Origin: Pyrinomonadaceae bacterium
Lineage (GTDB): Bacteria > Acidobacteriota > Blastocatellia > Pyrinomonadales > Pyrinomonadaceae
Assembly: GCA_035760365.1 (NCBI GenBank)
Contig: DASTTB010000015.1
Location: forward strand, 255,161 to 279,160
Direction of reading: 5' to 3'
DNA: 24,000 nt
Shown: positions 3,574-17,011 of the stretch, one piece after another
Position numbering within the stretch: the stretch's first letter is position 1
Layout: each line of letters begins with the position of its first letter
The notes under the pieces: model-generated
Databases searched by the model: none
What the model was told of the DNA's origin: nothing
The model's input: only the letters and a program-made list of their open reading frames with translations
Position numbers and translations under genes: made by a program

Positions 3574-5100
3574 TTACGACGACTCGCCACTCGGTTCGAG
3601 AAATAATCCTAATTCAGAGAACGCGGGACAAACCGGCGCTTGCGTTACACGCAGACGAATCTTCGTCGTTGTCACGGGTTTTCCCCGCAGCAGCCTGCAA
3701 TTCCCGACGCTGGTTCCGCGACCAGACTCCTGCCAGCCGTTGTCGTTCCAGACATCAAGCGCAAACGCTTCGACTCTTTGACCAAGCGGAAGATGTTCGC
3801 GCAGGCGAACGACGTTGAATGTTTGCTCGCGAGCGAGTTGCAGAATTAACTCGGGCGACTTCAGCTCATCATCCGTAGTCCAGTACGTATCGCGCCGGCG
3901 ATCGATGACGTTTCGCGCGGGGAAACCGCTGCGCGTGTTGCTCGCACTGACGCGCGCGCCCTGCGCGAGGTCTTGCGCAAACGTCGCGTCGAGAATACGA
4001 CGAAACTCACGCAGCGAATTCACGTCCGCGCCAGGAATTTGGCCGCGACGATCGGGCGCGAGGTTGAGCAAAAAAGAAGCGCCGCGACCGACGGACGAAT
4101 AGTAAAGATCGACGAGTGTCGCCGCGCTCTTGACCTTGTTGTCTTCACTAGCGTGATAGAACCAACCCGGCCTGATCGAAACGTCGCACTCGGCCGGCAC
4201 CCAATGCGTCCCCGGACGATCGCCGCGATTCAGCCGCGCTTCATCAGCTCGACCCGGCGCGAAGTCATCTTTATTCAGCGTGGACCAACACGGATCGCCC
4301 GCGATTCCTTTTTCGTTACCTACCCAGCGCACGTCCGGACCAGCGTCACTGAAAAGACAGGTGTCAGGTTGGAGCGTCCGCACGAGGTTCCACGTCGTGG
4401 GCCAATCGTAATAGGTGTCGCGATCGATCTTGCGCGTCTCGCGAGCGCCGCCGTAATAGCCGTCGCCGCCGTTCGCGCCGTCGAGAAAGATCTCGAACAC
4501 AGGACCACACGACGTCAGCAGTTCGCGCAGTTGATTGCGAAAGTAGATCAGGTATTCAGGACGGCCGTAATCTTTGTGGTTGCGATCCCACGGCGAAAGA
4601 TAGACGCCGAACTTCAGTCGATGCTTCCGGCAAGCGGCGGCAATCTCCTTCACGACGTCGCCGCGGCCGTTTCGCCACGGACTGTTCTTTACTGAATGCT
4701 CCGTGTATTTGGACGGCCAGAGACAGAACCCGTCGTGATGCTTGCAGGTCAGGATCAAACCTTTCATTCCCGCGGCGGCGGCCGTCGCCGCAATCTGATC
4801 GGCGTCAAAATCAGTCGGGTTGAAGAGCGACGGCGACTCGTCGCCGTAACCCCATTCCTTGTCAGTGAAGGTGTTGATCGTGAAATGGATGAATCCGTAA
4901 AACTCCATTTCATGCCAGCGAAGCTGTCGCTGTGAAGGTACGGGTCCGTACAGCGACGGTGGCCGAACCCTCGCGGCGCTCGCGATAGCTGAAGTGCCGA
5001 TCCAACCCGCCGCAACGGCGAACGACGACCGTTTCAGCAGTCTCAGAAACTCGCGGCGATCCTGATCGACGATTTTTCGACTCATTAAATCCCTAAACAT
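3574..5100 (-). CDS. Alpha-L-fucosidase (GH29) with a Tat-type signal and a C-terminal F5/8 type C (discoidin) domain
   Basis: 508-aa ORF. Twin-arginine motif DRREFLRLL. GH29 core HHDGFCLWPSKYTEHSVKNSPW, FGVYLSPWD and EIFLDGANGG. The C-terminal NVIDRRRDTYWTT...IRLRVTQ reads as discoidin-like. An alternative start ATG at 5085 (MSRKIV) is preceded by AGGGA and may be the true start. Confidence 0.9.
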   Translation of the reverse strand: MFRDLMSRKIVDQDRREFLRLLKRSSFAVAAGWIGTSAIASAARVRPPSLYGPVPSQRQLRWHEMEFYGFIHFTINTFTDKEWGYGDESPSLFNPTDFDADQIAATAAAAGMKGLILTCKHHDGFCLWPSKYTEHSVKNSPWRNGRGDVVKEIAAACRKHRLKFGVYLSPWDRNHKDYGRPEYLIYFRNQLRELLTSCGPVFEIFLDGANGGDGYYGGARETRKIDRDTYYDWPTTWNLVRTLQPDTCLFSDAGPDVRWVGNEKGIAGDPCWSTLNKDDFAPGRADEARLNRGDRPGTHWVPAECDVSIRPGWFYHASEDNKVKSAATLVDLYYSSVGRGASFLLNLAPDRRGQIPGADVNSLREFRRILDATFAQDLAQGARVSASNTRSGFPARNVIDRRRDTYWTTDDELKSPELILQLAREQTFNVVRLREHLPLGQRVEAFALDVWNDNGWQESGRGTSVGNCRLLRGKPVTTTKIRLRVTQAPVCPAFSELGLFLEPSGESS

Positions 5101-5136: not shown

Positions 5137-5180
5137 TTTCTATCATTTCTTAATGAGGGATAAGAGTAGTGTAGAGACAC

Positions 5181-5209
5181 TTGTATACTTGCGAGTTTCG
5201 CCATAGGAT
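5181..5209 (+). promoter_or_regulatory. Candidate sigma70-like promoter for the 5227-10714 cluster
   Basis: TTGTAT (5181-5186), a 17-nt spacer, then TAGGAT (5204-5209). This would leave only a ~10-nt leader before ATG 5227, which fits the absence of a well-spaced SD there. Motif match only. Confidence 0.25.
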
Positions 5210-5226
5210 CACGCGTAAATCAAGAG

Positions 5227-5526
5227 ATGTCGACGTTACGTGTAGATCTGCAAGAAGGGTTCAACGGCGATGAGGTAGATTTGCGCGTGAATGGTCAGGA
5301 GGCGTTTCAAAAAGGAGACGTTACGACTAAACAACTCCTTGGCCTCGCCTCGTCGGCGGAAATCGAAGTGCCGAACGGAACGGTAACGATCGAGATTAAA
5401 GTCCCAACGCAGAACCTCGCAAAAACGATATCGCTCGAGGCCTCGGGGTCGGAATACCTTGGAGTCTCAATCACGAACGGAAAAATCGAGCATATCGTGT
5501 CCCGCGAACCATTTGGTTACGCCTAA
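5227..5526 (+). CDS. Small hypothetical protein (99 aa), predicted beta-rich, no signal peptide
   Basis: Intact ORF with alternating-polarity strands (VTIEIKVPTQN, YLGVSITNGKIEHIV). It is co-directional with and 93 bp upstream of the metzincin-like gene. I recognise no family. The SD is weak or absent. Confidence 0.55.
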   Translation: MSTLRVDLQEGFNGDEVDLRVNGQEAFQKGDVTTKQLLGLASSAEIEVPNGTVTIEIKVPTQNLAKTISLEASGSEYLGVSITNGKIEHIVSREPFGYA

Positions 5527-5619
5527 GTAACCCTGGTTACGGTCTTGTAGACTCGCTCTACTTCCTCCTAACCGAGTAATCACAAGCTCTCTTAACCCTA
5601 ATAAGAGGTAAAAAAACGA

Positions 5620-7905
5620 ATGCATTCACCCCTAAATGTGCCGGTCGCTAATCCTTCCGGCGGAAATCCGTCACCAGCGAGTGTCGAGTTCATGGTCAGC
5701 GGAAGATACGAAGGCGAAATGTCCGCGCCGACAACCGGACTCGATCTTCTAGATCTGCGCATCGACGTAGATCGAAGTTACGCAAACTCGCCGATCATGA
5801 ATCGCGTGAGCGGCGACTTTTACCAGTTGAACAAGATCACTGTTCCCGGTTCCCCGCCGCTTGTTTCGAGAGTCTTTAGAGAGTCGTGGATCGTGAGCGC
5901 GCCCGAAGTTACGCGACACGCCGACCAGGTGACGATCACGGGCTCCGTCGAGTTCTGGAAAGGCATACATCCGCCAACCACTCTGCAACTCGTGATTAAG
6001 AGTCCCGAAGCAGGCGTGGCCCAGATCGCGGAGGTGTCGTTTATTTCAGACGGGGGTCAACCCGCGCTGTACAACTGTCTCCGGAAATCGGACGCGTTTC
6101 GTGACCTCGATCTCGAAATCGACGTCTGCGGGTCAGTCAATCACGCGCCGGTTCTGCCCGAAATCCTCACGACGGATCATCCGGTGCGTCCCGGCGGCAC
6201 GGCGCAGCGAGTGCTGACGATCGAAGAGTCGTATCGAGAAGCGGGTGTGCTCGTTTCAATCGCACCAACTCACGACGTCATCGACGATTCGCATCCGCAG
6301 TTTGATGCGTGGTCGGCGGCGGAACTGCACGACGTGATGGAGAAAAACTTCAGCAGGATCGGCGGCGTGTGGCCGCAGTGGTCCATGTGGGGGTTGTTAG
6401 CCGGTACCTACAATGAGCCGCTTGTAGGCGGCATCATGTTCGACGCGGCTGCCGCGTTTGGCGGAGCAGGTTCAGCGCCGGAACGACAAGGCTTCGCGAT
6501 CTTCAGAGAACACCAGTGGTTCGATTTCCTCACCACGCGTCCGCCCGCAAACAAGGATCAGGCTGCGGCTGCACGCCAGTATTTGTATACATGGCTGCAC
6601 GAGGCCGGTCACGCGTTCAACCTTCTTCACTCGTGGAACAAGAATCGGCCCGACGCGCTTTCATGGATGAACTACGCGTGGAAATACGACAACCTTCACG
6701 GCACCGACAGTTTCTGGTCCAACTTCAATTTCAGGTTTGACGACGAGGAGTTGATCCATCTTCGTCACGGCGATCGTGCCTCCGTGATCATGGGAGGAGA
6801 TCCGTGGGCGTCGGGCGGTCACATGGAAGCGCCGCCGGGAGCAGAGTATCTCGCCGTCCCTCCGAGCGCGCTCTCGACGATCGACGGCGACGTGCCGCTC
6901 GAGTTGTTGATTCGATCCAAAGGTTACTTCGAGTTCATGGAACCGGTCGCGATCGAGTTGAGACTAAGAAACCTGCTGCCGAACCTGCCGCTCAATCTCG
7001 ACACGCGACTGAGTCCAGAATACGGCGGCGTCGTGATCCACATTCGACGTCCCGATGGCCGCATCATCGAGTATGCGCCCATCATGTGCAAACTCGCGAT
7101 TCCCGACTATAGAACGTTGTATCCATTGAGTGGTGACTCCGAACGCGGCGATGATCGCTACAGCGAAGAGGTCGTTTTGAGTTACGGCCGCTACGGTTTT
7201 TACTTCGACGAACCCGGAGAATACCTGCTCCGCGCGCTTTACCAGGGTGCCGGCGACCTTCTCATTCCCTCGAACGTTCACCGCATCCGAGTCGGAACTC
7301 CGCTCACGAGAGACCTGGACATCACCGCTCAGGATTATTTCTCTTACGAGGTGGGAATGAACCTGTACCTCGAAGGCTCTCGCTCGGAGTACCTGAGAAA
7401 AGGATTCAACGTGATGAAGGACATGAGCGAGAAATACAGCGATTCGCTACTCGGAGCGAAGTTAGCAGCGACAGTGGCGAACAGTCTCACGAAGCCGTTC
7501 TTCAGCGTTGAGCCCACAGACGCGTATCCCGAGACACGCGAAAAGCTCTTAACAAAAACGCATGACGCCGATCCCCAAGCAGTTCTGGAAATGACGGCTT
7601 CCGCCGTTGACCTCATTCGAAAGCGCAACGAAAAAGCGCTCAACCTTTCGTACCGGCAGATTGTCGGCCAGCGTGTTCATTGCCTCGTGTCACTGGAGCG
7701 AAATGAAGACGCGCGATCCGAAATCAACCAACTGTACGAAGACCTTCAAAATACCGGCGCCAATCCACCAGTTCTCCGGCAGATCCGTGCCTTCGCCGAC
7801 GAAGTCGATACAGCAGGAACGACTCGCGCTCAAAAGCTTTGGGAACGGGTCCGCGCACAAGATCGCAAAGTTGAAAAAACCCAGAAACAACAACGGAACC
7901 AATAA
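5620..7905 (+). CDS. Metzincin-like zinc metalloprotease, large multidomain, no signal peptide
   Basis: 761-aa ORF. HEAGHAFNLLH (6598-6630) has metzincin HExxHxxGxxH spacing with Asn in place of Gly. SWMNY (6661-6675) resembles a Met-turn. A beta-sandwich-like middle region and a helical Lys/Arg/Gln-rich C-terminus follow. AAGAGG lies about 11 nt upstream of the ATG. Confidence 0.85.
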   Translation: MHSPLNVPVANPSGGNPSPASVEFMVSGRYEGEMSAPTTGLDLLDLRIDVDRSYANSPIMNRVSGDFYQLNKITVPGSPPLVSRVFRESWIVSAPEVTRHADQVTITGSVEFWKGIHPPTTLQLVIKSPEAGVAQIAEVSFISDGGQPALYNCLRKSDAFRDLDLEIDVCGSVNHAPVLPEILTTDHPVRPGGTAQRVLTIEESYREAGVLVSIAPTHDVIDDSHPQFDAWSAAELHDVMEKNFSRIGGVWPQWSMWGLLAGTYNEPLVGGIMFDAAAAFGGAGSAPERQGFAIFREHQWFDFLTTRPPANKDQAAAARQYLYTWLHEAGHAFNLLHSWNKNRPDALSWMNYAWKYDNLHGTDSFWSNFNFRFDDEELIHLRHGDRASVIMGGDPWASGGHMEAPPGAEYLAVPPSALSTIDGDVPLELLIRSKGYFEFMEPVAIELRLRNLLPNLPLNLDTRLSPEYGGVVIHIRRPDGRIIEYAPIMCKLAIPDYRTLYPLSGDSERGDDRYSEEVVLSYGRYGFYFDEPGEYLLRALYQGAGDLLIPSNVHRIRVGTPLTRDLDITAQDYFSYEVGMNLYLEGSRSEYLRKGFNVMKDMSEKYSDSLLGAKLAATVANSLTKPFFSVEPTDAYPETREKLLTKTHDADPQAVLEMTASAVDLIRKRNEKALNLSYRQIVGQRVHCLVSLERNEDARSEINQLYEDLQNTGANPPVLRQIRAFADEVDTAGTTRAQKLWERVRAQDRKVEKTQKQQRNQ

Positions 7906-7930
7906 GGGTCCCCACCTGAGGAGTAGAACG

Positions 7931-10714
7931 ATGCCCGATACGAACGACCAACTTGAAGACGTAATTAAAAAGTACAGCAAGAACGATCCCGAGCTTTACG
8001 AAGAATTGAAACGCAAAATGGCCGCGGTCGAACCTGTTGCCGCGGCTAAATCTCTCGACATAGGCGTTGCCGCCGCTCTGCCTCCCGTCAGCGAACCCGG
8101 CGGCGCCGAACTAGCAGAAGCCGTCGGCCTGGAGACGATCGTGCGTCGCCAGGCGCGGCCCGTACTCGTCATTCGCGACAACCAAACCACGATGGAGTTT
8201 CTTGGACCAGACAGTGAAGTCTGGCGATCGCGACTCAACGACGCGAAACCGATTCTGGATCAAATCATACCCGCCATCGGACGCGTGGAAGTAACAAATC
8301 ATCCGGACTTCGACTGGGTCGGAACCGGTTGGCTTGTTGCCGACGACATCATCGTCACGAATCGTCACGTCGCGCAGGAGTTCGCGCGCCGCGGTATGAA
8401 CGGTTTCACGTTTCGGCCCGGCATCAACGGCGGTCCGATGACTTCGCGCATCGACTTTCTCGAAGAAGACCAGCGGTCCGACAGTCTCGAGTATGCCGTG
8501 AGCTCGGTTCTGTTTATCGCTTCGCTAAACGAACCGGACGTCGCCTTCATGCGACTGACACGACCGCAGACCAGCCGGCCACTGCCGCCGCCGATCGTGC
8601 TTGCGGACTCGATAACGGGCGACGAGTTTATCGCGACGATAGGCTATCCCGCGCGCGATTCACGCGTGCCCGATCAGGATCTCGTGCTCAGAGTGTTTGG
8701 CGATGTGTACGAGAAGAAACGGTTAGCGCCCGGAACGATCATCAGTGTCACGGCCGACGAGCTGCAACACGATTGTTCAACGCTCGGCGGTAACTCCGGT
8801 TCGCCCGCGATCGATCTCAGTACCGGACGTGCCGTTGGTCTGCACTTCTCGGGCTTGTTCATGCAAGCGAATTTCGCGGTGCCTGCGCCGAGGGTGCGTG
8901 AGTTGCTCACTCGCGTTCAGCGTGGAGAAGCCGCGATCGCCTCCGTGGGCGCCAATGGACACAACGGAAACGCACACAAAGCGCCCGCAACGTCGACAGG
9001 ACCAGTCGTTTCGGCAGGAACCAACACGTTCACCATGCAACTCAATGTGCCGATCGAAGTGACGGTGAAAGTCGGCGCCGCGACGGCTGGACCATCTCCG
9101 CAGATCACCACCACCGCACCCGCGCTGAATGGCGATCAGTTTGAATCGGCATTGAAAGCGGCGCGCGAGGCGTTTGCCGGCGATCCCGACATCACCGAGA
9201 TCCGCTTGGGCTATCGATTCAAACGAGGCTGGATCACCGACGAACGTGTCGTGGTCGTCGAGACCCGAAACAAGATGACCGCAACCGAGTTGGCGGCGGC
9301 AGGAAAGCAAGCACTCCCGTCACAGATTCTCGGCGTCGGCGTTGACGTTCGCACCGCGGCGTTAAGAGATCAACTCGAGTCGATGGGCGTGGACATGTCG
9401 TTTTTGGAAGCGCCCGCGCGTCCCGGCCGTTATCGTGAGCCGTCCAACGTGACTCTCGATCGGGTAAACGAACAGATGCGTGTTGTGTTTCACGTCAGCC
9501 CCGATTCCGGTTTCCCAAATCTGCGGAAGTTCCTGGGCCGCGTGCGCCAACACATGACCGCGACGATGTATGAATGGGAACCGAATCACATCAGCGACGC
9601 GATCGAAGCGGCGATGTCAGGCGCAGGTAAGTCGCTGCGCATGGTGACGCAGCGCCAGGGAACCCGCGAAGCTGTTGAAGATATGCAGCAACGTCTCGGT
9701 GCGAAGTTCAAACATGTGTGGGCGTCTGTCGGCGCGGGTAAACTCATCCCGTCCGCGTATCACATCAAGGTCGCGTCGCGCGACGGTGAAGAGATCTGGC
9801 TGTCGAGTGGAAACTGGAAAGACTCGAACCAGGCCGACATCGATCCCGCCGGTACGAACTCAACCAATATCGCGCCTCTTCGCGAACATAATCGCGAATG
9901 GCACGCCGTGATCGAGAATCGAAAACTTGCGACTATCTTTCAGAAGTTCATTGAATTCGATTTTCGCGAAGCTGAACGTGTGCCCGCTGACGAAGGTCTC
10001 GAGTTGACGCTACCGGACGTGTTCGTTCCCGAAGCGGCATTCATGGAAGACGTCGAACGAAGAACGCCGATCGATTTCTTCGACCCACTCGAACGCGATC
10101 GCGTGTTCGACATCCAACCGCTGTTGACGCCGGATCGCAACTCACAGGGCCAGCGCCTGTACCTCGAACATGCCATCGACATGATCAGGCGCGCGGAGAG
10201 ACGCATCTATGTCGAGAACCAGTCGTTCAACTTGCTTGACGAAGAGAACAACAACGAAGAGTTCGTTGAATTCTTCCAGGCGCTGCGCGAAAAACAGGAA
10301 GACGGTCTTGATGTTCGCATCATCTTCCGCGACGCGCGCGAGTTTGGCGCCAGCAATGGTCCAAAACAGCAGAAGCTGCTCGAGCGGTTGAAAGAGTTCG
10401 GCATCGACACTGACTCCATCAAGGTCCAGAGACGGTGTCACACGAAAGGCATCATCATCGACGGCGAGGAAGTGATGCTCGGAAGTCACAACCTGACTAA
10501 CCAGGGCAGCTTGTTCAATCGCGATGCAAGTCTTCTCGTGCGTGACGCTGAGGTCGCCAGGTACTTCGAAAAGATCTTCCTGTTCGACTGGAATAATCTG
10601 GCGACTCAGGAGACCGACGAGTTGGTAGGTGGAATGCGTGTCGCGTTGCCGACAGAAGCAACACCCGCCGGTTTCCGTCGGGTGTCGCTTTCGGAGTTGC
10701 TGGGCGAAAGCTGA
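7931..10714 (+). CDS. Fusion protein: N-terminal trypsin-like serine protease plus C-terminal phospholipase D superfamily domain with two HKD motifs
   Basis: The ORF-track frame opens at 7607 but overlaps the upstream gene. ATG 7931 is preceded by GAGGAG 8-9 nt upstream and lies 25 bp after the upstream stop, giving 927 aa. Protease triad: TNRHVA (His 8366-8368), EPDVAF (Asp 8537-8539), GGNSGSP (Ser 8795-8797). HKD1 is YHIKVASRDGEEIWLSSGNW (His 9761-9763). HKD2 is CHTKGIIIDGEEVMLGSHNLTN (His 10439-10441). No signal peptide or TM segment is seen. Confidence 0.9.
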   Translation: MPDTNDQLEDVIKKYSKNDPELYEELKRKMAAVEPVAAAKSLDIGVAAALPPVSEPGGAELAEAVGLETIVRRQARPVLVIRDNQTTMEFLGPDSEVWRSRLNDAKPILDQIIPAIGRVEVTNHPDFDWVGTGWLVADDIIVTNRHVAQEFARRGMNGFTFRPGINGGPMTSRIDFLEEDQRSDSLEYAVSSVLFIASLNEPDVAFMRLTRPQTSRPLPPPIVLADSITGDEFIATIGYPARDSRVPDQDLVLRVFGDVYEKKRLAPGTIISVTADELQHDCSTLGGNSGSPAIDLSTGRAVGLHFSGLFMQANFAVPAPRVRELLTRVQRGEAAIASVGANGHNGNAHKAPATSTGPVVSAGTNTFTMQLNVPIEVTVKVGAATAGPSPQITTTAPALNGDQFESALKAAREAFAGDPDITEIRLGYRFKRGWITDERVVVVETRNKMTATELAAAGKQALPSQILGVGVDVRTAALRDQLESMGVDMSFLEAPARPGRYREPSNVTLDRVNEQMRVVFHVSPDSGFPNLRKFLGRVRQHMTATMYEWEPNHISDAIEAAMSGAGKSLRMVTQRQGTREAVEDMQQRLGAKFKHVWASVGAGKLIPSAYHIKVASRDGEEIWLSSGNWKDSNQADIDPAGTNSTNIAPLREHNREWHAVIENRKLATIFQKFIEFDFREAERVPADEGLELTLPDVFVPEAAFMEDVERRTPIDFFDPLERDRVFDIQPLLTPDRNSQGQRLYLEHAIDMIRRAERRIYVENQSFNLLDEENNNEEFVEFFQALREKQEDGLDVRIIFRDAREFGASNGPKQQKLLERLKEFGIDTDSIKVQRRCHTKGIIIDGEEVMLGSHNLTNQGSLFNRDASLLVRDAEVARYFEKIFLFDWNNLATQETDELVGGMRVALPTEATPAGFRRVSLSELLGES

Positions 10715-10773
10715 TAGCTAACAGCCGAGAGTTGATCGCCTGAACAGGCGAGAGCTGATTACCCGGCGATTCG

Positions 10774-10914
10774 CACATCAAGACCGCCATCACAGCGGCT
10801 ATGCCGCCGGATGTGAGGCGAGGCTACGCCTCGCCGTTGGTTTTGTTGGATTAGGGGCTACGCCCCTTAGCGGGAACAGGAGGGCATAGCCCAAGTTTGA
10901 TTAGGGACCTACCG
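10774..10914. repeat. Copy 1 of a ~141-bp structured direct repeat (chain of GGC-NNN-GCC hairpins)
   Basis: It differs from 11075-11217 by two 1-nt indels and one substitution. It contains local hairpins ggcgaggc-tac-gcctcgcc (10817-10835), aggggc-tac-gcccct and gcggc-tat-gccgc. The segment 10804-10819 is a perfect 16-bp inverted repeat of 10930-10945. Confidence 0.85.
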
Positions 10915-10929
10915 GCAGGGCTGAGCCCT

Positions 10930-10953
10930 GCCTCACATCCGGCGGCGGAGCCG
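10930..10953. repeat. Right-hand inverted-repeat arm closing the copy-1 element
   Basis: gcctcacatccggcgg (10930-10945) is the exact reverse complement of 10804-10819. The match extends imperfectly to 24 nt. It is preceded by the hairpin ggcagggc-tga-gccctgcc (10914-10932). Confidence 0.75.
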
Positions 10954-11001
10954 CGGTGAGTTATGTGACTGTCACCAAACGAAATTTAGGAAGTTCGCGG
11001 C

Positions 11002-11098
11002 GGCTTCGCCCATCGATACCCGATCATTCCCAGCGGCTTCGCACATCGATACCCGGTCATTCGCACCGGCTACACACATCAAGACCGCCCATCACAGC
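11002..11098. repeat. Three tandem ~33-bp units leading into repeat copy 2
   Basis: ggcttcgcccatcgatacccgatcattcccagc (11002-11034), ggcttcgcacatcgatacccggtcattcgcacc (11035-11067) and ggctacacacatcaagaccgcccatcacagc (11068-11098). Copy 1 carries only one hybrid unit, around 10755-10798. Confidence 0.75.
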
Positions 11099-11217
11099 GG
11101 CTATGCCGCCGGATGTGAGGCGAGGCTACGCCTCGCCGTTGGTTTTGTTGGATTAGGGGGCTACGCCCCTTAGAGGGAACAGGAGGGCATAGCCCAAGTT
11201 TGATTAGGGACCTACCG
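11075..11217. repeat. Copy 2 of the ~141-bp structured direct repeat, lacking the right inverted arm
   Basis: 143 nt, near-identical to 10774-10914. It ends 22 nt before the stop codon of the TonB-dependent receptor gene. No counterpart of 10930-10945 follows it. Confidence 0.85.
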
Positions 11218-11239
11218 CTTGGTGTTCGCGCGGCAAAGC

Positions 11240-14200
11240 TCAGAACGAAAGGCGGACACCAAGCTGAATCTCGCGACCGGGAGTTGCAGCTTCCGTGATC
11301 GTGCCGAACTGCGGCGTGTTCACGAAGCGATTCGGTATTCCGAGGTTTGTGTGATTCAGTGCGTTGAATGCCTCGGCGCGGAACTGCAACTTCACCGTTT
11401 CCGTCATCGAAAATTCCCGCTGTAAAGCCAGATCCAGCGTCTGCCGTCCCGGACCATAAACGGTGTTGCGGCCGACGTTGCCAAACGTGAACGCCGCCGG
11501 CGTACTGAACGCCGCGGTGTTGAACCACCTGTCTGCCGTTCTACTGTTACCGTCAAATATCGGCTGGCCCGTGTAGTTTGCGCGGATCGGGTTCTCACCG
11601 AGCAACGTGCCGGCGTTAGCGGTATCGCCGAAGACGGAAATCGTCAACGGGAACCCGGACTGTGCCTGGTAGATCGCTGACAGCCGCCAATCCTTCGTGA
11701 GCGTATGAACGAAACCGCTCTTGCTCACCGACGGAAGACTGTAAACCGCGCTGAACGCGAAACGATGACGGACGTCGCAGGCGAGTCCTCTTTCGTGTCG
11801 CAGATCGAAACTGTTCTGCGGTATCGCCGATTCGAACATTGGCGAACGGAAATCAGGAGCGTCGCTGAGGTTCTTTGAATAAGTGTAGTTGGCGAGGAAC
11901 GTCAAACCCTGGGCAAATCGCCGGCGCACATTCACGTAACCAGCGTGATACGAACTGGTCGCGGAGTTCTCCAGCAGATTGATGCCGCTCACCGGGAACG
12001 TCGTATTCACAACGTTGATGTTATCAGGCAGGACCATGCCCGGCAGAAAACTCAGAGTCGTAAACGGCCGGCGCGGTCCAATCGCGCCCGGTCCCGGAGG
12101 CGCGTTGTTGATGAGACGAGACCGTTGCAGGTGCAGACCACGAGATCCGAGATAACCGAGTTCGAGCGTTGTTTCCGCGCCGAGACTTTTTTCAACCGAA
12201 CCGCTCCACTGTTCGATGTATTGCGGCGGCGCGTTGAGTTCGAAAGCTGCAAAACTCACAGTCGTGACGCCCAGCACGGCTGGTCCAAAATTAAAGTGAC
12301 TGGCAACAATGCCGGGGGCGGGTGTGAAATTGTCACTCTGTTGTGTTTCCGGAAAAACGAATGGCACGTTGTGACGTTGATTGCACCACGTATTCATGTC
12401 AACGGGTGTGAAGAAGATGCCAAACGCCGCATGAAACACGAGACCGTGCTGGTGAAGGTTATGTGAAATACCAAAGCGCGGCGCGAACCTCAGCTTGTTC
12501 GAGTGGTTCAAGCCTTCCGGGTATCCCTGTTGTCCGCCGATAAATACGAATGGACGGCCATTCTGAAAATCGAGGTTTGTATTTGCGTAACGAATGTCGC
12601 GCAGCGGACTCATGTATTCGTAGCGGAGTCCGAGCTGAATCGTCGTGTTGCGAGTGATTTGAAAACTGTCGTGTACGAAAGCGTCGGCGTACCATTGCCG
12701 TAACTGCATCTGCGGAATGCCCGCTTGCCTTTGTTTCACCGCGGGCAGTCCTAACAGGAAACTCGCAAGCGCCGAACCCGTCCCGTCGTTCGTCGCGGTT
12801 TGAGTAGTGAAGCCGTTGGTGAACTGGTAATAACCCCGGTTCTGGAAGAAGCCCCACATGGGCCAGATGAAATGGCGATAGGCGGCGCCAAATTTCAAAC
12901 TGTGCCTTCCCTTTTGCCAACTCAGTGAATCACGAGCTTCAATCACCGTGTTCCACGCGTGCATCGGTGTGGCGATGAAAGTGTCGCCCATTCCCGAATA
13001 ACCCTGCACGTTGAACCACGGCGCGCCCCACGCGCCTTCGCCTCCGAAACCAACGCCCGTGATTCCGAGTTCGGAAACGATGTCGTTGGTAAAACTGTTT
13101 TCCGAAGTGCGATGCATCGCGAGCCGCGAGATCGTGACGGTCGCGATGTTCACGACATTTGGACTGATGATGCGAGTCCAACCAAGCATACCGTGTTGTG
13201 ACAGATTGTCGTGGAGAGCACCAAAGCCGGGTAGGTTTTGCGGAGTGAAGCCTCGTTCACTGTTGAACGAATAACGGAAAAAGAGACTGTCGCCGCCGCT
13301 CAGATTGTGATCGTAGCGAATCGTGGCTTGATCAGTTTCGTGATGGGCATTTCGTACGTCGAGATAGTTGTTGCAGTCCATGCCGGCGCCTACAACTGTG
13401 GGAGCGCCCATCATCGTCATTCCACAGCCCATCATTCCCATTTCGAGATTCGGCCGTGGAACGTATTTACGCAGAAACAACTGCGCCTTCGGATCGATCA
13501 GGTTCTGAGGAATCACGCCTCCCGCAAACTCATCGCGAATGACCTGCGGGTTGCTTGGGCTGACGGGCCTGGTCGGATCGAAGTTCGGGTTGGGGTGAGA
13601 ACTAAAAGGGTTGTAAATCCTTGCGCCGCTCATCTCGAAGTTGCCGTTGATCTCATCCTCGGTTGGGACTGTCGAGACCATCGTTTGCGACCTCGTATGC
13701 CGCAGACCTTCATAATTGAAGAAGAAAAAACCTTTGTTGCGCACGATTGGTCCACTCAACGAACCGCCGAAGTTGTTGCGCACAAGATGATTTCCCTCGT
13801 CCATCTCGTTGAAGGTGCGAGCATCGAGCACGTCGTTGCGCAGGAACTCGTACGCTGTTCCGTGAAACTCATTTCCTCCGGTGCGCGTGACGATGTTGAT
13901 CTGGCCACCGCCCGCGCCACCGATTTCAGCCGTGTAGCTTCCGGTCTGGACTTTGAACTCCTGAACGACGTCAGGTGACGGGCTGAGGTTGAGCGTATTG
14001 AACGTCGGATCGGTGTTTGTCGCGCCGTCGAGTAAGAAGTAGTTTGCGTTGGGACGATTGCCGCCGATGCTTACGGCAGAGCGTTGGCCCGGACGCCAGT
14101 AAAGCGGACTCATGTCGCCGGCCTGCGCTCCGTGTGACTCGTGCGCGCCGGGCACGGTCAACACGAGATCGATCAGCATTCGTCCGTTCAACGGAAGATT

Positions 14201-14632
14201 CTGCACCGCTGTCGGTTCGACGACTTCGCCGACGGACGCATCAGTCGTCTTGAGCAGGTTGACGGAATCAGTCCTGACATCGACAACCGTGCTGACGGCG
14301 GCGACCTTCAGAGCGACGTCAATCATGCGCGCCTCGCCGACTTCGAGCTTTATCTCCTGGCTCACCGATGCAAATCCGGAGGCCTGGACCGACAAGACAT
14401 AATTGCCGGGAAGCAAGCCGCTGATCTGAAATATACCGAGATCGTTTGTCGTCGCGTGTCGCGCAGCGTTAGTGCTCGCGGAGCTGAGTTGGACCGTGCA
14501 ACCTGGCACGACTTGCTGTTGAGGATCGACAACAGTGCCGGTCAAGGTTGCGTAGTTGCTTTGTGCGTCAGCCGTAGTGCTTGCCAACAGCAGGATCAGA
14601 AAGAACGAGAGTTGAACGGTCGTACGCATCAT
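11240..14632 (-). CDS. TonB-dependent outer-membrane receptor with an N-terminal carboxypeptidase-regulatory-like domain
   Basis: 1130-aa ORF. Signal peptide ...LLLASTTADAQ. N-terminal TLTGTVVDPQQQVVPGCTVQL...GNYVLSVQASGF. Long Gly/Asn/Tyr-rich beta-barrel sequence. C-terminal ...GVRLSF ends in an aromatic residue as in OMPs. GGAGG lies 7 nt upstream of the ATG. Confidence 0.9.
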   Translation of the reverse strand: MMRTTVQLSFFLILLLASTTADAQSNYATLTGTVVDPQQQVVPGCTVQLSSASTNAARHATTNDLGIFQISGLLPGNYVLSVQASGFASVSQEIKLEVGEARMIDVALKVAAVSTVVDVRTDSVNLLKTTDASVGEVVEPTAVQNLPLNGRMLIDLVLTVPGAHESHGAQAGDMSPLYWRPGQRSAVSIGGNRPNANYFLLDGATNTDPTFNTLNLSPSPDVVQEFKVQTGSYTAEIGGAGGGQINIVTRTGGNEFHGTAYEFLRNDVLDARTFNEMDEGNHLVRNNFGGSLSGPIVRNKGFFFFNYEGLRHTRSQTMVSTVPTEDEINGNFEMSGARIYNPFSSHPNPNFDPTRPVSPSNPQVIRDEFAGGVIPQNLIDPKAQLFLRKYVPRPNLEMGMMGCGMTMMGAPTVVGAGMDCNNYLDVRNAHHETDQATIRYDHNLSGGDSLFFRYSFNSERGFTPQNLPGFGALHDNLSQHGMLGWTRIISPNVVNIATVTISRLAMHRTSENSFTNDIVSELGITGVGFGGEGAWGAPWFNVQGYSGMGDTFIATPMHAWNTVIEARDSLSWQKGRHSLKFGAAYRHFIWPMWGFFQNRGYYQFTNGFTTQTATNDGTGSALASFLLGLPAVKQRQAGIPQMQLRQWYADAFVHDSFQITRNTTIQLGLRYEYMSPLRDIRYANTNLDFQNGRPFVFIGGQQGYPEGLNHSNKLRFAPRFGISHNLHQHGLVFHAAFGIFFTPVDMNTWCNQRHNVPFVFPETQQSDNFTPAPGIVASHFNFGPAVLGVTTVSFAAFELNAPPQYIEQWSGSVEKSLGAETTLELGYLGSRGLHLQRSRLINNAPPGPGAIGPRRPFTTLSFLPGMVLPDNINVVNTTFPVSGINLLENSATSSYHAGYVNVRRRFAQGLTFLANYTYSKNLSDAPDFRSPMFESAIPQNSFDLRHERGLACDVRHRFAFSAVYSLPSVSKSGFVHTLTKDWRLSAIYQAQSGFPLTISVFGDTANAGTLLGENPIRANYTGQPIFDGNSRTADRWFNTAAFSTPAAFTFGNVGRNTVYGPGRQTLDLALQREFSMTETVKLQFRAEAFNALNHTNLGIPNRFVNTPQFGTITEAATPGREIQLGVRLSF

Positions 14633-14791
14633 TCAACAACCTCCGACACTACTTACTGAGTTAAGAAATGAGATCCGTGTTAACTAAAAGCGAAGACTGC
14701 TGGGAGGGACGTGAGTCTAACGAGAGTTGCCGAGACTGTCATCGGCCAAAAGTTTGAATTGGTGATAAACGCTTGGGTGGATTCTTACTGC

Positions 14792-14962
14792 TCAAAGAAA
14801 CTCGGATACTCGCGTTTGATGAGCGTATTTCTTGATGACGTCGGCGGCGGCGAGCGCATTCTCAAATCGACCTGCCTGTAACTCACTTAGTACCCGCTCG
14901 AGCGGATCCGTTGTTTGCGCGTTCGCAAACTGACAAACGAACAGCAGGAGAGACGCAACCAT
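14792..14962 (-). CDS. Possible 56-aa ORF with a signal-peptide-like N-terminus (below the ORF-track cutoff); may be a gene remnant
   Basis: Hand translation gives MVASLLLFVCQFANAQTTDPLERVLSELQAGRFENALAAADVIKKYAHQTRVSEFL*. It lies in the 382-bp gap upstream of the TonB receptor gene. I saw no clear SD. Confidence 0.25.
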   Translation of the reverse strand: MVASLLLFVCQFANAQTTDPLERVLSELQAGRFENALAAADVIKKYAHQTRVSEFL

Positions 14963-15826: not shown

Positions 15827-17011
15827 TTATGCAATTCGACTGCATTTGTTAAGGTCGTCTTGCAGCGGTACCCCATTGAGGCATAACAGTCGGTAGGTTC
15901 GTTCGATAGTGTCTCGGTCCGCGTGCCACACGGTAGACGGGATCTTGAGCACGTTACAGACCTCCGCTACTGCTCGCATTCCCTTTTGCCACGAATCGTC
16001 GAACTCGGAAACCGCTGCGCGCGAGAACAATCCCGCTATCTTCCATGCCTCCAAGTGCGCGTTTTCCAGACGAATGCTGGGGTGTGGATGTGATTGCAGC
16101 ATTCCGGGATGCGGATTCACGCCAACGGATGGAATCTCGCGACTTCTTTCCTGCCCGAAAAGCACAAACGTGAACGCCATCGCAATGGACCACACGCGAA
16201 GCGCCTCACCAGCGGATTTGAAAATACTTTGCGGACCATACAAAGCTGAGAACCACTCGTTTACAGTGAATACCACAGCGAAAGAGTCCGCCTGAAGTTC
16301 GATCACCTGGCTTGGAATTGCAGGAAGCTGGCATGGTCCAGTCTCATCGACAAACGGTCCGAAGTCTTTTCGAATCTTTCTTGCGAACTTGTCGTGCCCC
16401 AGACACCAATGTCCGATCTCGTGAAAGAACACGAAGTCGAGGGCGAACATCGTGAGGTATCCGGCAAAGACGGCGCGTTCGCCTTTCGCCAATGTCGCGC
16501 CACTGCCTTTCGGCAAAGACTGAAGCGCGGCGCCGACAGACAAGTTCCAGTTCCACGCTGAAAGATCGTCAAACCACTTGACCTGCTTGTTCGGTTCTCC
16601 GACGTCCGGAAGTACCTCGGGATGCGACAACAGAACCTGGAAAAAGTATCCCAGGTCCCAAACGGCCCCCGTAAAGACGCCGATGAACGCCGATTTCCGT
16701 ATTCCCGTAACCGCTGCGTTTAAATGCGGATTGTCTACCAAATCAACGTACGCTGAACGAAGCGCGCGTGAGTAAAGACCGCCGCGCTGCATCTTTCGCA
16801 GGTAGTCCCAGTAACGTCGCTTGAACCAACCGGGAAGAAGCGCCGCGTTATCCTCCGGTTTGATGTTGTACCTGCCGCCAAAGGGTTCGAAGAACTTTTT
16901 GAATAGAGCCCCGCGGAGTGGCATTCGCGGAACGGCGGAAGCGTCGTAGGCCGGGAACCACGGATCAAAAACAAATTGTGAGGTCACTTCGTTTGCCGGC
17001 ATTTCATTCAC
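15827..17011 (-). CDS. Hypothetical protein with an ImmA/IrrE (M78)-like HExxH metalloprotease motif
   Basis: 394-aa ORF. FFHEIGHWCLGH (His197 codon at 16421-16423) is followed about 37 residues later by IELQADSFAV, resembling the HExGH...E.xA[ND].FA pattern of COG2856/M78 peptidases. GTG start at 17011; alternative ATG at 17002. Confidence 0.75.
   Translation of the reverse strand: MNEMPANEVTSQFVFDPWFPAYDASAVPRMPLRGALFKKFFEPFGGRYNIKPEDNAALLPGWFKRRYWDYLRKMQRGGLYSRALRSAYVDLVDNPHLNAAVTGIRKSAFIGVFTGAVWDLGYFFQVLLSHPEVLPDVGEPNKQVKWFDDLSAWNWNLSVGAALQSLPKGSGATLAKGERAVFAGYLTMFALDFVFFHEIGHWCLGHDKFARKIRKDFGPFVDETGPCQLPAIPSQVIELQADSFAVVFTVNEWFSALYGPQSIFKSAGEALRVWSIAMAFTFVLFGQERSREIPSVGVNPHPGMLQSHPHPSIRLENAHLEAWKIAGLFSRAAVSEFDDSWQKGMRAVAEVCNVLKIPSTVWHADRDTIERTYRLLCLNGVPLQDDLNKCSRIA

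What the first reader, a model, noticed from the sequence alone, without database searches (positions are those of the whole stretch)
7931..10714. Single polypeptide combining an apparently active trypsin-fold protease with an apparently active double-HKD PLD domain
All three serine-protease catalytic residues sit in canonical contexts: TNRHV, DVAF, GNSGSP. Both HKD motifs are also intact: HIKVASRD...SSGNW and HTKGIIID...GSHNL. About 290 residues separate the two halves. This linker includes a Thr/Ala/Pro/Gly-rich low-complexity stretch (9000-9130) and a compact region (DITEIRLGYRFKRGWITDERVVVVETRNKMTATELAAAG). The N-terminal ~60 residues are helical and charged (DQLEDVIKKYSKNDPELYEELKRKM), followed by LETIVRRQARPVLVI. 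This might be an adaptor or prodomain. The architecture suggests autoprocessing or protease-controlled release of the PLD moiety. I do not recall it as a characterised architecture.
Basis: partly seen in the sequence, partly recalled or inferred. Interest (0 to 1): 0.75.

Follow-up and report, generated by a model that had tools for sequence, protein, structure and literature searches.

The report
Trypsin protease fused to PLD effector
This is a real, strongly conserved bacterial gene that joins an intact serine protease to an intact phospholipase-D-type enzyme; it looks like an uncharacterised PLD-carrying relative of the protease-plus-nuclease "cell-suicide" proteins of bacterial immune systems, here found without the usual sensor genes.

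Summary
Window 7931-10714 (+) encodes one 927-aa protein with a Trypsin_2 domain and a double-HKD PLDc_2 domain.

The fusion is not an artefact:
- More than 117 full-length homologues (53-91% identity) from at least six phyla keep the triad and both HKD motifs without exception.
- dN/dS against a 91% orthologue is 0.16.

The key result is modularity. The N-terminal part (short helical head, V8-like protease, conserved strand in the linker) is 41-47% identical to proteins that carry a NucA endonuclease in place of PLD. That is the published "NucA-trypsin" / CARD-NLR class, which includes Caulobacter LypC. The same protease part is also found joined to lipase, Metallophos or STAND domains.

A paralogous trypsin-PLD subfamily (30-33% identity) lies in operons with one or two more trypsin proteases and a STAND NTPase.

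The window's own subfamily is nearly always a solo gene. Its immediate neighbours are not enriched in known defence genes. The upstream 761-aa HExxH protein is a lineage-specific neighbour.

Best reading: a latent protease-plus-PLD effector controlled by proteolysis. Cleavage, trigger and substrate are all inferred. Verdict: new variant of a known kind, moderate interest.

The parts
7918..7923 (+). Shine-Dalgarno GAGGAG, 7 nt before ATG 7931. The upstream gene's TAA stop is at 7903-7905.
7931..10714 (+). Trypsin-PLD gene, 927 aa plus TGA stop.
7931..8029 (+). N-terminal helical head (aa 1-33), with the conserved motif RDPxLYxELxxK.
   Evidence: AF2 helices at aa 5-31. Conserved in the family and weakly in NucA fusions.
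8030..8152 (+). Variable, disordered linker 1 (aa 34-74). It ends in the conserved L-E68-T-I-V...RPV motif.
   Evidence: pLDDT below 50. E68 is identical in 117/117, 24/26 and 21/21 of the three sets examined. The motif is shared with paralogous proteases.
8153..8929 (+). S1 serine protease domain (aa 75-333), V8/glutamyl-endopeptidase-like. Catalytic codons: His146 (8366-8368), Asp203 (8537-8539), Ser289 (8795-8797). His305 in GLHFSG is also invariant.
   Evidence: Pfam. PDB profile hits to glutamyl endopeptidases, E=5.5e-7. Invariance.
8930..9130 (+). Disordered Thr/Ala/Pro/Gly-rich linker 2 (aa 334-400). This is the point where relatives carry a different C-terminal domain.
   Evidence: pLDDT 26-35. 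Matches to N-terminal-only relatives end at aa 383-428 and matches to PLD-only relatives start at aa 403-407.
9026..9076 (+). Conserved strand-like island TFTMQLNVPIEVTVKVG (aa 366-382) inside linker 2. It travels with the protease part.
   Evidence: P374 is identical in 117/117. The island is also present in trypsin-NucA proteins.
9131..9385 (+). Small alpha/beta domain (aa 401-485). It travels with the PLD part.
   Evidence: AF2 pLDDT 73-85. Retained in PLD-only proteins L036/L037.
9386..10615 (+). Two-lobed PLD-superfamily domain (aa 486-895). HKD motif 1 is at 9761-9817 and HKD motif 2 at 10439-10495.
   Evidence: Pfam. Foldseek E=1e-14 to PLD structures. Invariance.
10616..10711 (+). Conserved C-terminal tail (aa 896-927) with TPxGFRRVS. 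P912, G914, R916 and R917 are invariant in the close family.
   Evidence: Less conserved in distant representatives.
5620..7905 (+). Upstream 761-aa protein with HEAGHAFNLLH (HExxHxxxxxH). It ends 25 nt before the trypsin-PLD start. It is a lineage-specific neighbour and only possibly part of the same system.
5227..5526 (+). 99-aa gene that accompanies the 761-aa gene in unrelated genomes.

Best explanation
The gene encodes a cytoplasmic, latent protein made of two enzymes. A V8-like (probably acid-specific) serine protease is tethered by a disordered linker to a double-HKD PLD-superfamily phosphodiesterase.

It is the PLD-carrying counterpart of the trypsin-endonuclease proteins of the 'NucA-trypsin' / CARD-NLR conflict systems (the class of Caulobacter LypC).

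Most likely mechanism, all of it inferred:
1. The protein is held inactive.
2. A proteolytic event activates it. Candidate sites are the flexible linkers (aa 34-74 and 334-400). One candidate is directly after the invariant Glu68, which would expose a new protease N-terminus as in V8 protease.
3. The cut is made by the protein's own protease domain or by another protease.
4. This turns on the protease and/or frees the PLD part.
5. The PLD part then degrades nucleic acid (somewhat favoured) or phospholipid, causing growth arrest or death of the cell.

In a paralogous subfamily the trigger is supplied by linked trypsin proteases and a STAND NTPase. In the window's subfamily the gene stands alone. 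Activation there must be autonomous, or depend on unlinked partners, or, in Pyrinomonadaceae, possibly depend on the adjacent HExxH protein.

Shown: architecture, conservation, intact active sites, homology of the two parts, and gene contexts.
Inferred: latency, cleavage, substrate and biological role.
For: 1. The fusion is real and selected.
- More than 117 full-length homologues.
- 169 relatives among the 185,579 species genomes scanned, spread over many phyla.
- Triad and both HKD motifs are invariant.
- dN/dS is 0.16 overall, 0.12 for the protease and 0.16 for PLD.

2. The C-terminal domain is exchangeable.
- Residues 1 to about 400 are 41-47% identical to proteins that end in Endonuclease_NS.
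- Among the top 150 representatives (50%-identity clusters) found with residues 1-400: 35 carry PLD, 34 NucA, 57 the protease alone, and 24 something else.
- Eight long or unclassified ones were scanned with Pfam. They carry Lipase_3, Metallophos, a fused STAND NTPase, S8 + TPR-S, or caspase + NucA.
- A neighbouring gene in L030 is Trypsin_2 + Endonuclease_1.

3. Operon context of paralogues.
- 19 of 35 loci with under 40% identity have further trypsin ORFs, and 7 have a STAND NTPase.
- Example: L055 has four tightly packed genes of 968, 399, 679 and 1145 aa.
- Rhizobial plasmids carry clusters with M12 metallopeptidase, caspase, S8 peptidase, amidase and patatin genes.

4. Literature.
- Kaur et al. 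[quoted passage not shown]
- Wein et al. [quoted passage not shown]
- LypC: trypsin, linker, endonuclease; the protease serine is essential.
- Protease-gated pro-nucleases have been shown experimentally for trypsin-MBL pairs.

5. PLD affinities.
- The best named sequence matches are the defence PLDs DrmC, DpdK and MkoC.
- The fold matches two-HKD enzymes, including the PLD3/4 exonucleases.

6. No N-terminal hydrophobic segment is visible by eye in the sequence, and the N-terminus is a conserved charged helix.
Against: - No cleavage, toxicity or defence was tested.
- In the window's own subfamily (40% identity or more, 30 loci), only 2 loci have another trypsin gene nearby and only 1 has a STAND NTPase.
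- The four nearest ORFs of 29 such loci (114 proteins) show no recurrent PADLOC family. Every listed family matched a single protein.
- The window itself has neither a second trypsin nor a STAND gene.
- No adaptor-type second copy of the N-terminal head was found in neighbours.
- The whole protein is unusually well conserved across phyla (mean column identity 57%), which is not typical of fast-evolving immune sensors.
- In LypC the nuclease activity was dispensable, so the fused enzyme need not be the killing activity.
- The AF2 interdomain geometry is uncertain (pTM 0.54), and I could not inspect coordinates to test whether an active site is occluded.
- Nuclease versus lipase is undecided. 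A Lipase_3 variant of the same protease part exists.
Confidence: 0.55

Rival explanations
1. The protease is the real output and the PLD domain is structural or regulatory. The protein would act as a signalling or executioner protease that cleaves other cellular targets, as reported for LypC, where the fused nuclease's catalytic residues were dispensable for lysis.
For: For LypC, S296A abolishes lysis while the endonuclease mutants have no effect. Many relatives consist of the protease part alone (57 of 150).
Against: Both HKD motifs are identical in 117 of 117 close homologues and nearly so in distant ones. The PLD part has dN/dS 0.16. An inert scaffold would not be expected to keep nine catalytic residues.
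Confidence: 0.15
2. The solo subfamily has a cellular function unrelated to defence. Examples are regulated lysis for release of gene transfer agents or phage, developmental cell death, or protease-controlled lipid or nucleic-acid turnover.
For: Solo genes show no recurrent defence neighbours. Neighbours in the window and other loci are metabolic. Conservation across phyla is very high. LypABC itself serves GTA release and is not in a defence island.
Against: Distribution is sporadic (169 relatives among the 185,579 species genomes scanned). Related forms sit on conjugative plasmids. Homology is to conflict-system components. None of this fits a core housekeeping role.
Confidence: 0.15
3. It is an exported toxin or digestive enzyme (protease plus phospholipase or nuclease) used against competitors or prey.
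For: The hosts are soil bacteria, including predatory or competitive groups (Myxococcota, Bacteroidota). Two hydrolytic activities sit in one protein.
Against: No N-terminal hydrophobic segment or membrane segment is apparent by eye, and the N-terminus is a conserved acidic helix. No conserved immunity gene or secretion-system neighbour was found. The family spans phyla with different secretion systems.
Confidence: 0.07
4. It is an assembly or frameshift artefact that joins two separate genes.
For: None found.
Against: The same single ORF occurs in isolate genomes (Larkinella terrae, Sphingomonas sp. HMP6, Dyadobacter, Flavobacterium, Erythrobacter) and in many independent assemblies. Codon-level purifying selection runs across the junction.
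Confidence: 0.01

Closest known systems
LypC-type trypsin-endonuclease component of CARD-NLR-like systems (Caulobacter LypABC, PMC13236601; three-gene CARD operons of Wein et al., PMC10312443)
   Same: Same plan: an N-terminal trypsin-like protease of about 335 aa, a flexible linker, then a C-terminal hydrolase. Trypsin-NucA proteins of that design (L078, L079, L082) share 41-47% identity with residues 1-400 of the window protein, including the head motif, E68, the triad and the linker island. Paralogous trypsin-PLD genes lie beside one or two further trypsin proteases and a STAND NTPase of about 1000-1145 aa.
   Different: The effector is a double-HKD PLD, not a NucA endonuclease. The window has no CARD-protease and no NLR-like gene. 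I could not compare directly with the LypC sequence. The CARD fold of the operon neighbours could not be confirmed by sequence.
'NucA-trypsin' conflict system (System 3 of Kaur, Burroughs, Iyer and Aravind 2020, PMC7159879)
   Same: A trypsin-like peptidase fused to, or encoded with, a nuclease effector. Multiple peptidase paralogues, an S8 peptidase, EAD1-trypsin and an occasional STAND NTPase. All of these occur around relatives found here.
   Different: That paper defines the system by NucA. Its main text never mentions PLD or HKD, and the one supplementary file held as text has no occurrence either. The window gene is solo.
Protease-gated pro-effectors: trypsin-MBL nuclease pairs and related modules (Tuck et al. 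2025, PMC12799240; Evans et al. 2025, PMC12642450)
   Same: The logic is a latent hydrolase released by site-specific cleavage by a trypsin-like protease, with modules recombined with many sensors.
   Different: There the effector is a separate gene and the protease is fused to the sensor. Here protease and effector are one chain. PLD and NucA are not mentioned in Evans et al..
Defence-associated PLD proteins DrmC (DISARM), DpdK and MkoC (Mokosh)
   Same: These are the best named sequence matches of the second PLD lobe: PADLOC DrmC E=3e-12, NCBIfam DrmC E=4.5e-10, DpdK E=2.4e-6.
   Different: Scores are far below the family cut-offs (39.5 against 133 bits; 27.2 against 100). Those proteins have no protease and belong to other systems.
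Staphylococcal V8 / glutamyl endopeptidases (peptidase subfamily S1B)
   Same: The region around the catalytic serine, xHDCSTLGGNSGSP...GLHFSG, gives the best PDB sequence matches, E=5.5e-7. JGI names several homologues 'V8-like Glu-specific endopeptidase'. From my own knowledge, the His in G-x-H helps to bind the P1 glutamate in these enzymes.
   Different: Identity is low and confined to the C-terminal barrel. Substrate specificity was not tested. There is an extra beta-hairpin and helices (aa 78-115) before the catalytic His.
Two-HKD PLD-superfamily enzymes with solved structures (7e0m PLD, human PLD1/2, vaccinia F13, PLD3/PLD4 5' exonucleases, E. coli PssA)
   Same: Bilobed fold, Foldseek E=1e-14 to 1e-11 with target-normalised TM 0.55-0.69 for the smaller enzymes (7e0m, F13, PLD3/4, PssA) and about 0.40-0.45 for the larger human PLD1/2 catalytic domains.
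   Different: Identity is 11-16%. The set includes both lipid and nucleic-acid enzymes, so it does not fix the substrate.

Membership tests
Peptidase S1 (Pfam Trypsin_2) | Profile match above the curated cut-off | tested here: met
   59.7 bits against 27.6, aa 131-304
Peptidase S1 (Pfam Trypsin_2) | His/Asp/Ser triad in order and conserved | tested here: met
   H146, D203 and S289 are identical in 117/117, 26/26 and 21/21 relatives
PLD superfamily (Pfam PLDc_2) | Profile match above the cut-off and two HxK(x)4D(x)6[GS]SxN motifs | tested here: met
   84.3 bits against 27, two stretches. H611/K613/D618/N628 and H837/K839/D844/N854 are invariant.
PLD superfamily (Pfam PLDc_2) | Bilobed PLD fold | tested here: met
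   Foldseek against PDB, E=1.3e-14 to 7e0m, PLD2, F13 and PLD3/4. Model pLDDT is mostly 70-95 in this region.
NucA-trypsin system (Kaur et al. 2020, System 3) | Trypsin-like peptidase homologous to that of the NucA fusions | tested here: met
   41-47% identity over aa 1-400 with Trypsin_2 + Endonuclease_NS proteins
NucA-trypsin system (Kaur et al. 2020, System 3) | NucA (Endonuclease_NS) effector domain | tested here: not met
   The C-terminal half is PLDc_2, with no Endonuclease_NS hit
NucA-trypsin system (Kaur et al. 2020, System 3) | Several peptidase genes in the same operon | tested here: not met
   No second trypsin in the window. Met in 19 of 35 loci of the distant subfamily.
CARD-NLR-like defence system | Effector fused to a trypsin-like protease | tested here: met
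   Architecture, against the description
CARD-NLR-like defence system | Adjacent CARD-containing protease | tested here: not met
   None in the window. In paralogous operons the candidate proteins give no sequence match to the solved CARD domains 8SRZ/8SS1. The paper says sequence similarity is poor, so a fold test would be needed.
CARD-NLR-like defence system | Adjacent NLR-like/STAND ATPase | tested here: not met
   None in the 24-kb window. Present in 7 distant-subfamily loci and in L008.
DISARM DrmC / DpdK | NCBIfam equivalog score above the cut-off | tested here: not met
   39.5 against 133 bits; 27.2 against 100 bits
Protease-gated zymogen (functional class) | The effector is inactive until a specific cleavage | not testable with these tools
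   Needs biochemistry.
Glutamyl endopeptidase (S1B) | P1 Glu/Asp specificity | not testable with these tools
   Only motif-level and profile similarity

The most novel reading that the evidence does not exclude
The solo subfamily is a self-contained, single-polypeptide death or immune device. With no separate sensor or NTPase, the V8-like protease activates itself, for example by cutting after the invariant Glu68. It then severs the conserved linker to release a PLD-family nuclease or lipase. The trigger would be a conserved cellular cue rather than a phage protein. Alternatively the device has been co-opted, like LypABC, for programmed lysis rather than defence.
Probability: 0.2. Interest if true: 0.7.

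Novelty: new variant of a known kind. Interest (0 to 1): 0.5.

Why it matters
Proteolysis-gated effectors are emerging as a major logic of bacterial immunity, with parallels to caspase and gasdermin pathways. The trypsin-effector fusion class (LypC, NucA-trypsin) has almost no biochemistry behind it.

This family offers a compact test case. It has two clearly active enzymes in one chain, sharp domain boundaries and a candidate activation site. It also has natural variants in which the same protease carries PLD, NucA, lipase or Metallophos.

The subfamily is solo, highly conserved across phyla and lacks any visible sensor. That raises the question of how such a potentially lethal protein is kept silent and what switches it on.

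It would also add PLD-type enzymes to the list of protease-linked effectors. No paper in the searched library holds both the terms 'CARD-NLR' and 'phospholipase D', or both 'PLDc_2' and 'Trypsin_2'.

Tried and rejected
1. The upstream 761-aa HExxH protein as an obligate partner: rejected.
- It is adjacent only in some Pyrinomonadaceae (L004, L005, L007).
- It is precisely absent, together with its 99-aa companion, from the 91%-identical syntenic locus L003.
- The 99-aa + ~750-aa pair occurs without trypsin-PLD in other genomes.

2. The 'EAD principle' (a second copy of the N-terminal head in a neighbour): an HMM of aa 1-34 found only the orthologues themselves.

3. Defence-island context for the solo subfamily: PADLOC on the 114 nearest ORFs of 29 loci gave no recurrent family. 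Every listed family matched a single protein.

4. nSTAND3 gene next to a PLD-only relative (L036): it is not conserved in L037, L040 or L088, so I gave it little weight.

5. Phage origin: only one weak, PLD-only hit in IMG/VR.

6. CARD identity of operon neighbours by sequence: no match to solved CARD-like domains. Inconclusive.

7. Substrate assignment from structure: Foldseek hits mix lipid and nucleic-acid PLDs. Undecided.

8. Fold of the 761-aa neighbour: the model is good (pLDDT 79, pTM 0.77), but no PDB match has E below 1e-3.

9. Promoter scan: none found between the upstream gene and 7931, and the only terminator-like hairpin there is on the minus strand. This fits co-transcription but proves nothing.

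10. Rfam: nothing in the window.
Full report
OBSERVATION

The + strand ORF 7607-10714 has its real start at ATG 7931, giving 927 aa and a TGA stop. A GAGGAG ribosome-binding site lies 7 nt upstream. The N-termini of 37 aligned homologues begin at the same place.

Pfam gives Trypsin_2 (aa 131-304, E=7e-16, 59.7 bits against a cut-off of 27.6) and PLDc_2 (two stretches, E=9e-24, 84.3 bits against 27).

IS THE FUSION REAL?

Yes.
- A search of 5.8 billion proteins returned 1311 hits. Nearly all of the best 120 are full length (about 917-990 aa), carry both Pfam domains and are 53-91% identical. They come from Pyrinomonadaceae, Larkinella, Sphingomonas, Erythrobacter, Novosphingobium, Phycisphaerae and Thermoanaerobaculia, among others.
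- A scan of one genome per species found 169 relatives among 185,579 species. They include isolate genomes of Bacteroidota and Alphaproteobacteria, and MAGs of Gemmatimonadota, Myxococcota, Chloroflexota, Planctomycetota, Nitrospira and Obscuribacterales.
- In 117 full-length close homologues, H146, D203, S289, H611, K613, D618, N628, H837, K839, D844 and N854 are all identical. In 26 more distant representatives the triad is 26/26 and the HKD residues are 24-26/26.
- Against the 91%-identical orthologue L003, dN/dS is 0.156 overall, 0.12 for the protease and 0.16 for the PLD part.

A frameshift or assembly artefact is excluded.

ANATOMY

An AF2 model built on 38 sequences (mean pLDDT 71, pTM 0.54) together with the alignment gives:
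- aa 5-31: short helical head, with the conserved motif RDPxLYxELxxK.
- aa 34-74: variable and disordered. It ends in the motif L-E68-T-I-V...RPV.
- aa 75-333: protease.
- aa 334-400: disordered Thr/Ala/Pro/Gly-rich linker, containing a conserved strand-like island (aa 366-382; P374 identical in 117/117).
- aa 401-485: compact alpha/beta domain.
- aa ~512-890: bilobed PLD.
- aa 896-927: conserved tail, TPxGFRRVS.

The protease is most like V8/glutamyl endopeptidases (PDB profile search E=5.5e-7). It has HDCSTLGGNSGSP...GLHFSG, and His305 is invariant.

The PLD fold matches 7e0m, human PLD1/2, vaccinia F13, the PLD3/4 exonucleases and PssA (E=1e-14 to 1e-11). The nearest named sequence families are the defence PLDs DrmC, DpdK and MkoC, but the scores are far below their cut-offs. 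The substrate therefore stays open.

No N-terminal hydrophobic segment is visible by eye in the sequence.

CONTEXT IN THE WINDOW

The gene follows, by 25 nt and on the same strand, a 761-aa protein with HEAGHAFNLLH and no Pfam family. That gene is itself preceded by a 99-aa gene.

This trio is conserved in some Pyrinomonadaceae (L004, L005, L007; the partner is 71-74% identical). Several metagenome contigs also hold both genes, judged by matching contig lengths.

However, in the syntenic 91% orthologue L003 the segment 5166-7907 (both upstream genes) is cleanly missing while trypsin-PLD stays intact. The 99-aa + ~750-aa pair also occurs without trypsin-PLD elsewhere. The HExxH protein is therefore a facultative neighbour.

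The rest of the window is mostly metabolic or transport genes: a fucosidase, a TonB-type barrel protein, an ADH, a polyketide cyclase, DUF899 and ICL. A TPR-CHAT / HEAT-PQQ gene pair lies 8-13 kb away.

THE KEY COMPARATIVE RESULT: MODULARITY

Matches in other genomes break exactly at the linker. Some relatives match only aa 1 to about 400. Others match only from aa ~403 onward.

The N-terminal-only relatives (L078, L079, L082; 41-47% identity, including the head motif, E68, the triad and the linker island) end in Endonuclease_NS (NucA).

An exhaustive HMMER search of 1.84 billion cluster representatives with aa 1-400 gave 3191 hits, 697 of them at E<=1e-30. The best 150 split as follows:
- 57 with the protease alone
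- 35 with the PLD part
- 34 with NucA
- 24 others

Eight long or unclassified representatives were scanned with Pfam. They carry Lipase_3, Metallophos, a directly fused STAND NTPase, TPR-S + S8, or TPR-S + a second trypsin. Two of the NucA carriers also have a caspase domain or a STAND NTPase. A divergent neighbour in L030 is Trypsin_2 + Endonuclease_1.

The alpha/beta + PLD part also exists alone in Flavobacterium.

The window protein is thus one combination in a family where a fixed protease part carries interchangeable hydrolase domains.

OPERON CONTEXT OF PARALOGUES

A second trypsin-PLD subfamily (30-33% identity, full length) commonly lies in tight operons. L055, itself a Pyrinomonadaceae MAG, has trypsin-PLD (968 aa), then a 399-aa trypsin of the same clade with the same ALE-[TA]-[IV] motif, then a 679-aa trypsin protein, then a 1145-aa AAA_16/NB-ARC STAND NTPase.

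Counting 65 full-length loci:
- Under 40% identity (35 loci): 19 have extra trypsin ORFs and 7 have this STAND NTPase.
- 40% identity or more (30 loci, the window's subfamily): 2 have extra trypsin ORFs and 1 has a STAND NTPase.

EAD1-trypsin genes flank L008 and L032.

On rhizobial plasmids, mostly conjugative, relatives lie in protease-rich clusters:
- M12 metallopeptidase + caspase + a 1788-aa double-trypsin-PLD protein.
- Amidase / trypsin / trypsin-PLD / patatin.
- S8 peptidase + an 80-aa gene + trypsin-NucA.

COMPARISON WITH WHAT IS KNOWN

- Kaur et al. 2020 described 'System 3'. [quoted passage not shown] PLD and HKD are not mentioned in the main text or in the one supplementary file held as text.
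[quoted passage not shown] They showed that CARD-NLR systems with phospholipase or endonuclease effectors defend against phage.
- In Caulobacter LypABC, LypC is trypsin (aa 1-335), then a linker, then an endonuclease (aa 354-662). Its protease serine is essential for lysis but its nuclease residues are dispensable. The operon is not in a defence island.
- Tuck et al. and Evans et al. showed biochemically that trypsin-linked MBL nucleases and other modules are zymogens released by site-specific cleavage. Evans et al. mention neither NucA, phospholipase nor HKD.
- No paper in the library holds both 'PLDc_2' and 'Trypsin_2', or both 'CARD-NLR' and 'phospholipase D'.

MECHANISM (INFERRED)

The best reading is a latent protease-plus-PLD effector whose activity is licensed by cleavage in its flexible linkers.

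One specific, testable idea concerns Glu68. It is invariant in all three subfamilies (117/117, 24/26, 21/21). It sits at the start of the protease domain of an enzyme with a glutamyl-endopeptidase-like pocket. Cleavage after it would create a new N-terminus. From my own knowledge, V8 protease needs exactly this for activity.

Displacement by NucA and Endonuclease_1, and the DrmC/DpdK affinity, lean towards a nucleic-acid target. The Lipase_3 variant and the PLD1/2-like fold keep lipid possible.

CAVEATS

- The window's subfamily is solo.
- Its nearest neighbours show no recurrent PADLOC family (114 ORFs from 29 loci; every listed family matched one protein).
- No second copy of the head domain exists nearby.
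- The protein is unusually conserved for an immune component.
- LypC warns that the fused enzyme may not be the killer.
- I could not inspect model coordinates, so occlusion of an active site is untested.
- I did not align directly with LypC.

VERDICT

- The protein is a new (PLD, mostly solo) variant of the known trypsin-effector fusion class.
- Interest is moderate (0.5). A specialist would not be astonished, but the family is a clean and tractable entry point to an almost unstudied effector class. The sensor-less, highly conserved solo form is a real puzzle.

Noticed in passing
window 5227-5526 and 5620-7905 (+): A 99-aa gene plus a 761-aa gene with HEAGHAFNLLH (a metzincin-like HExxHxxxxxH motif). 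The larger protein belongs to a big family (928 hits) of ~750-aa 'hypothetical' proteins with no Pfam, NCBIfam or PADLOC match. The pair recurs in unrelated genomes (L086, L087). The AF2 model is confident (pLDDT 79, pTM 0.77): an N-terminal beta-sandwich, a helical HExxH core, a second beta-sandwich and a helical repeat tail. No PDB fold match has E below 1e-3. It may be an uncharacterised metallopeptidase family.
   Followed up: partly
window 5166-7907 compared with L003 7954-7978: The two-gene module above is a clean indel relative to the 91% orthologous locus L003. The fucosidase gene (window 3574-5100) survives in L003 only as two short remnants of 70 and 104 nt.
   Followed up: yes
window 10771-11216: A repeat-rich insertion of about 445 nt just downstream of the gene, absent from L003. 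It has two near-identical copies of a ~130-nt unit 302-303 nt apart (71 nt exact plus 61 nt at 98%). Each copy carries a GC-rich terminator-like hairpin (10817-10835 and 11119-11137). There are also three 33-nt tandem repeats and 47-nt inverted arms. No Rfam match. It may be a MITE/REP-like element.
   Followed up: partly
window 18712-20913 and 20920-23856 (-): An adjacent gene pair: a HEAT-repeat + PQQ beta-propeller protein (732 aa) and a TPR + CHAT (caspase-like) protein (977 aa). Proteins of this type are common in conflict systems. The pair lies 8-13 kb from the trypsin-PLD gene, and a link was not examined.
   Followed up: no
window 15827-17011 (-): The 394-aa ORF gives only a weak M48 hit here. 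Its orthologue in L003 carries a precomputed Peptidase_U49 (Lit-like) Pfam hit. It lies next to a DUF899 gene.
   Followed up: no
window ~14820-14826 compared with L003 14450-16422: L003 carries about 2 kb with two extra genes (359 aa of unknown function and a 362-aa TPR protein) between the TonB-type barrel gene and DUF899. They are missing from the window.
   Followed up: no
L091 5163-9085; L092 5112-9073 (Agrobacterium and Rhizobium plasmids): A conserved three-gene cassette: S8 serine peptidase, an 80-aa hypothetical gene, then trypsin-NucA (~700 aa). On the Agrobacterium Ti plasmid (L091) it lies next to a CHAT protein and a second S8 peptidase.
   Followed up: partly
L089 4159-11745 (Bradyrhizobium barranii plasmid pBb1S5b): M12 metallopeptidase, caspase-family protein and a 1788-aa protein with two Trypsin_2 domains plus PLD, in a row. 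A further trypsin/S8 pair and IS1380 copies are nearby. This parallels the window, where a metallopeptidase-like gene sits upstream of trypsin-PLD.
   Followed up: partly
L002 (Sphingomonas sp. HMP6) 6529-14747: The solo trypsin-PLD gene is flanked by three Pfam-less genes (461, 530 and 706 aa). Nearby are umuDC-like genes, a transposase-like HTH gene and a 2042-aa DUF4011/AAA_11/AAA_12/SLFN_AlbA_2 helicase-type protein. This looks like a mobile or defence-like island.
   Followed up: no
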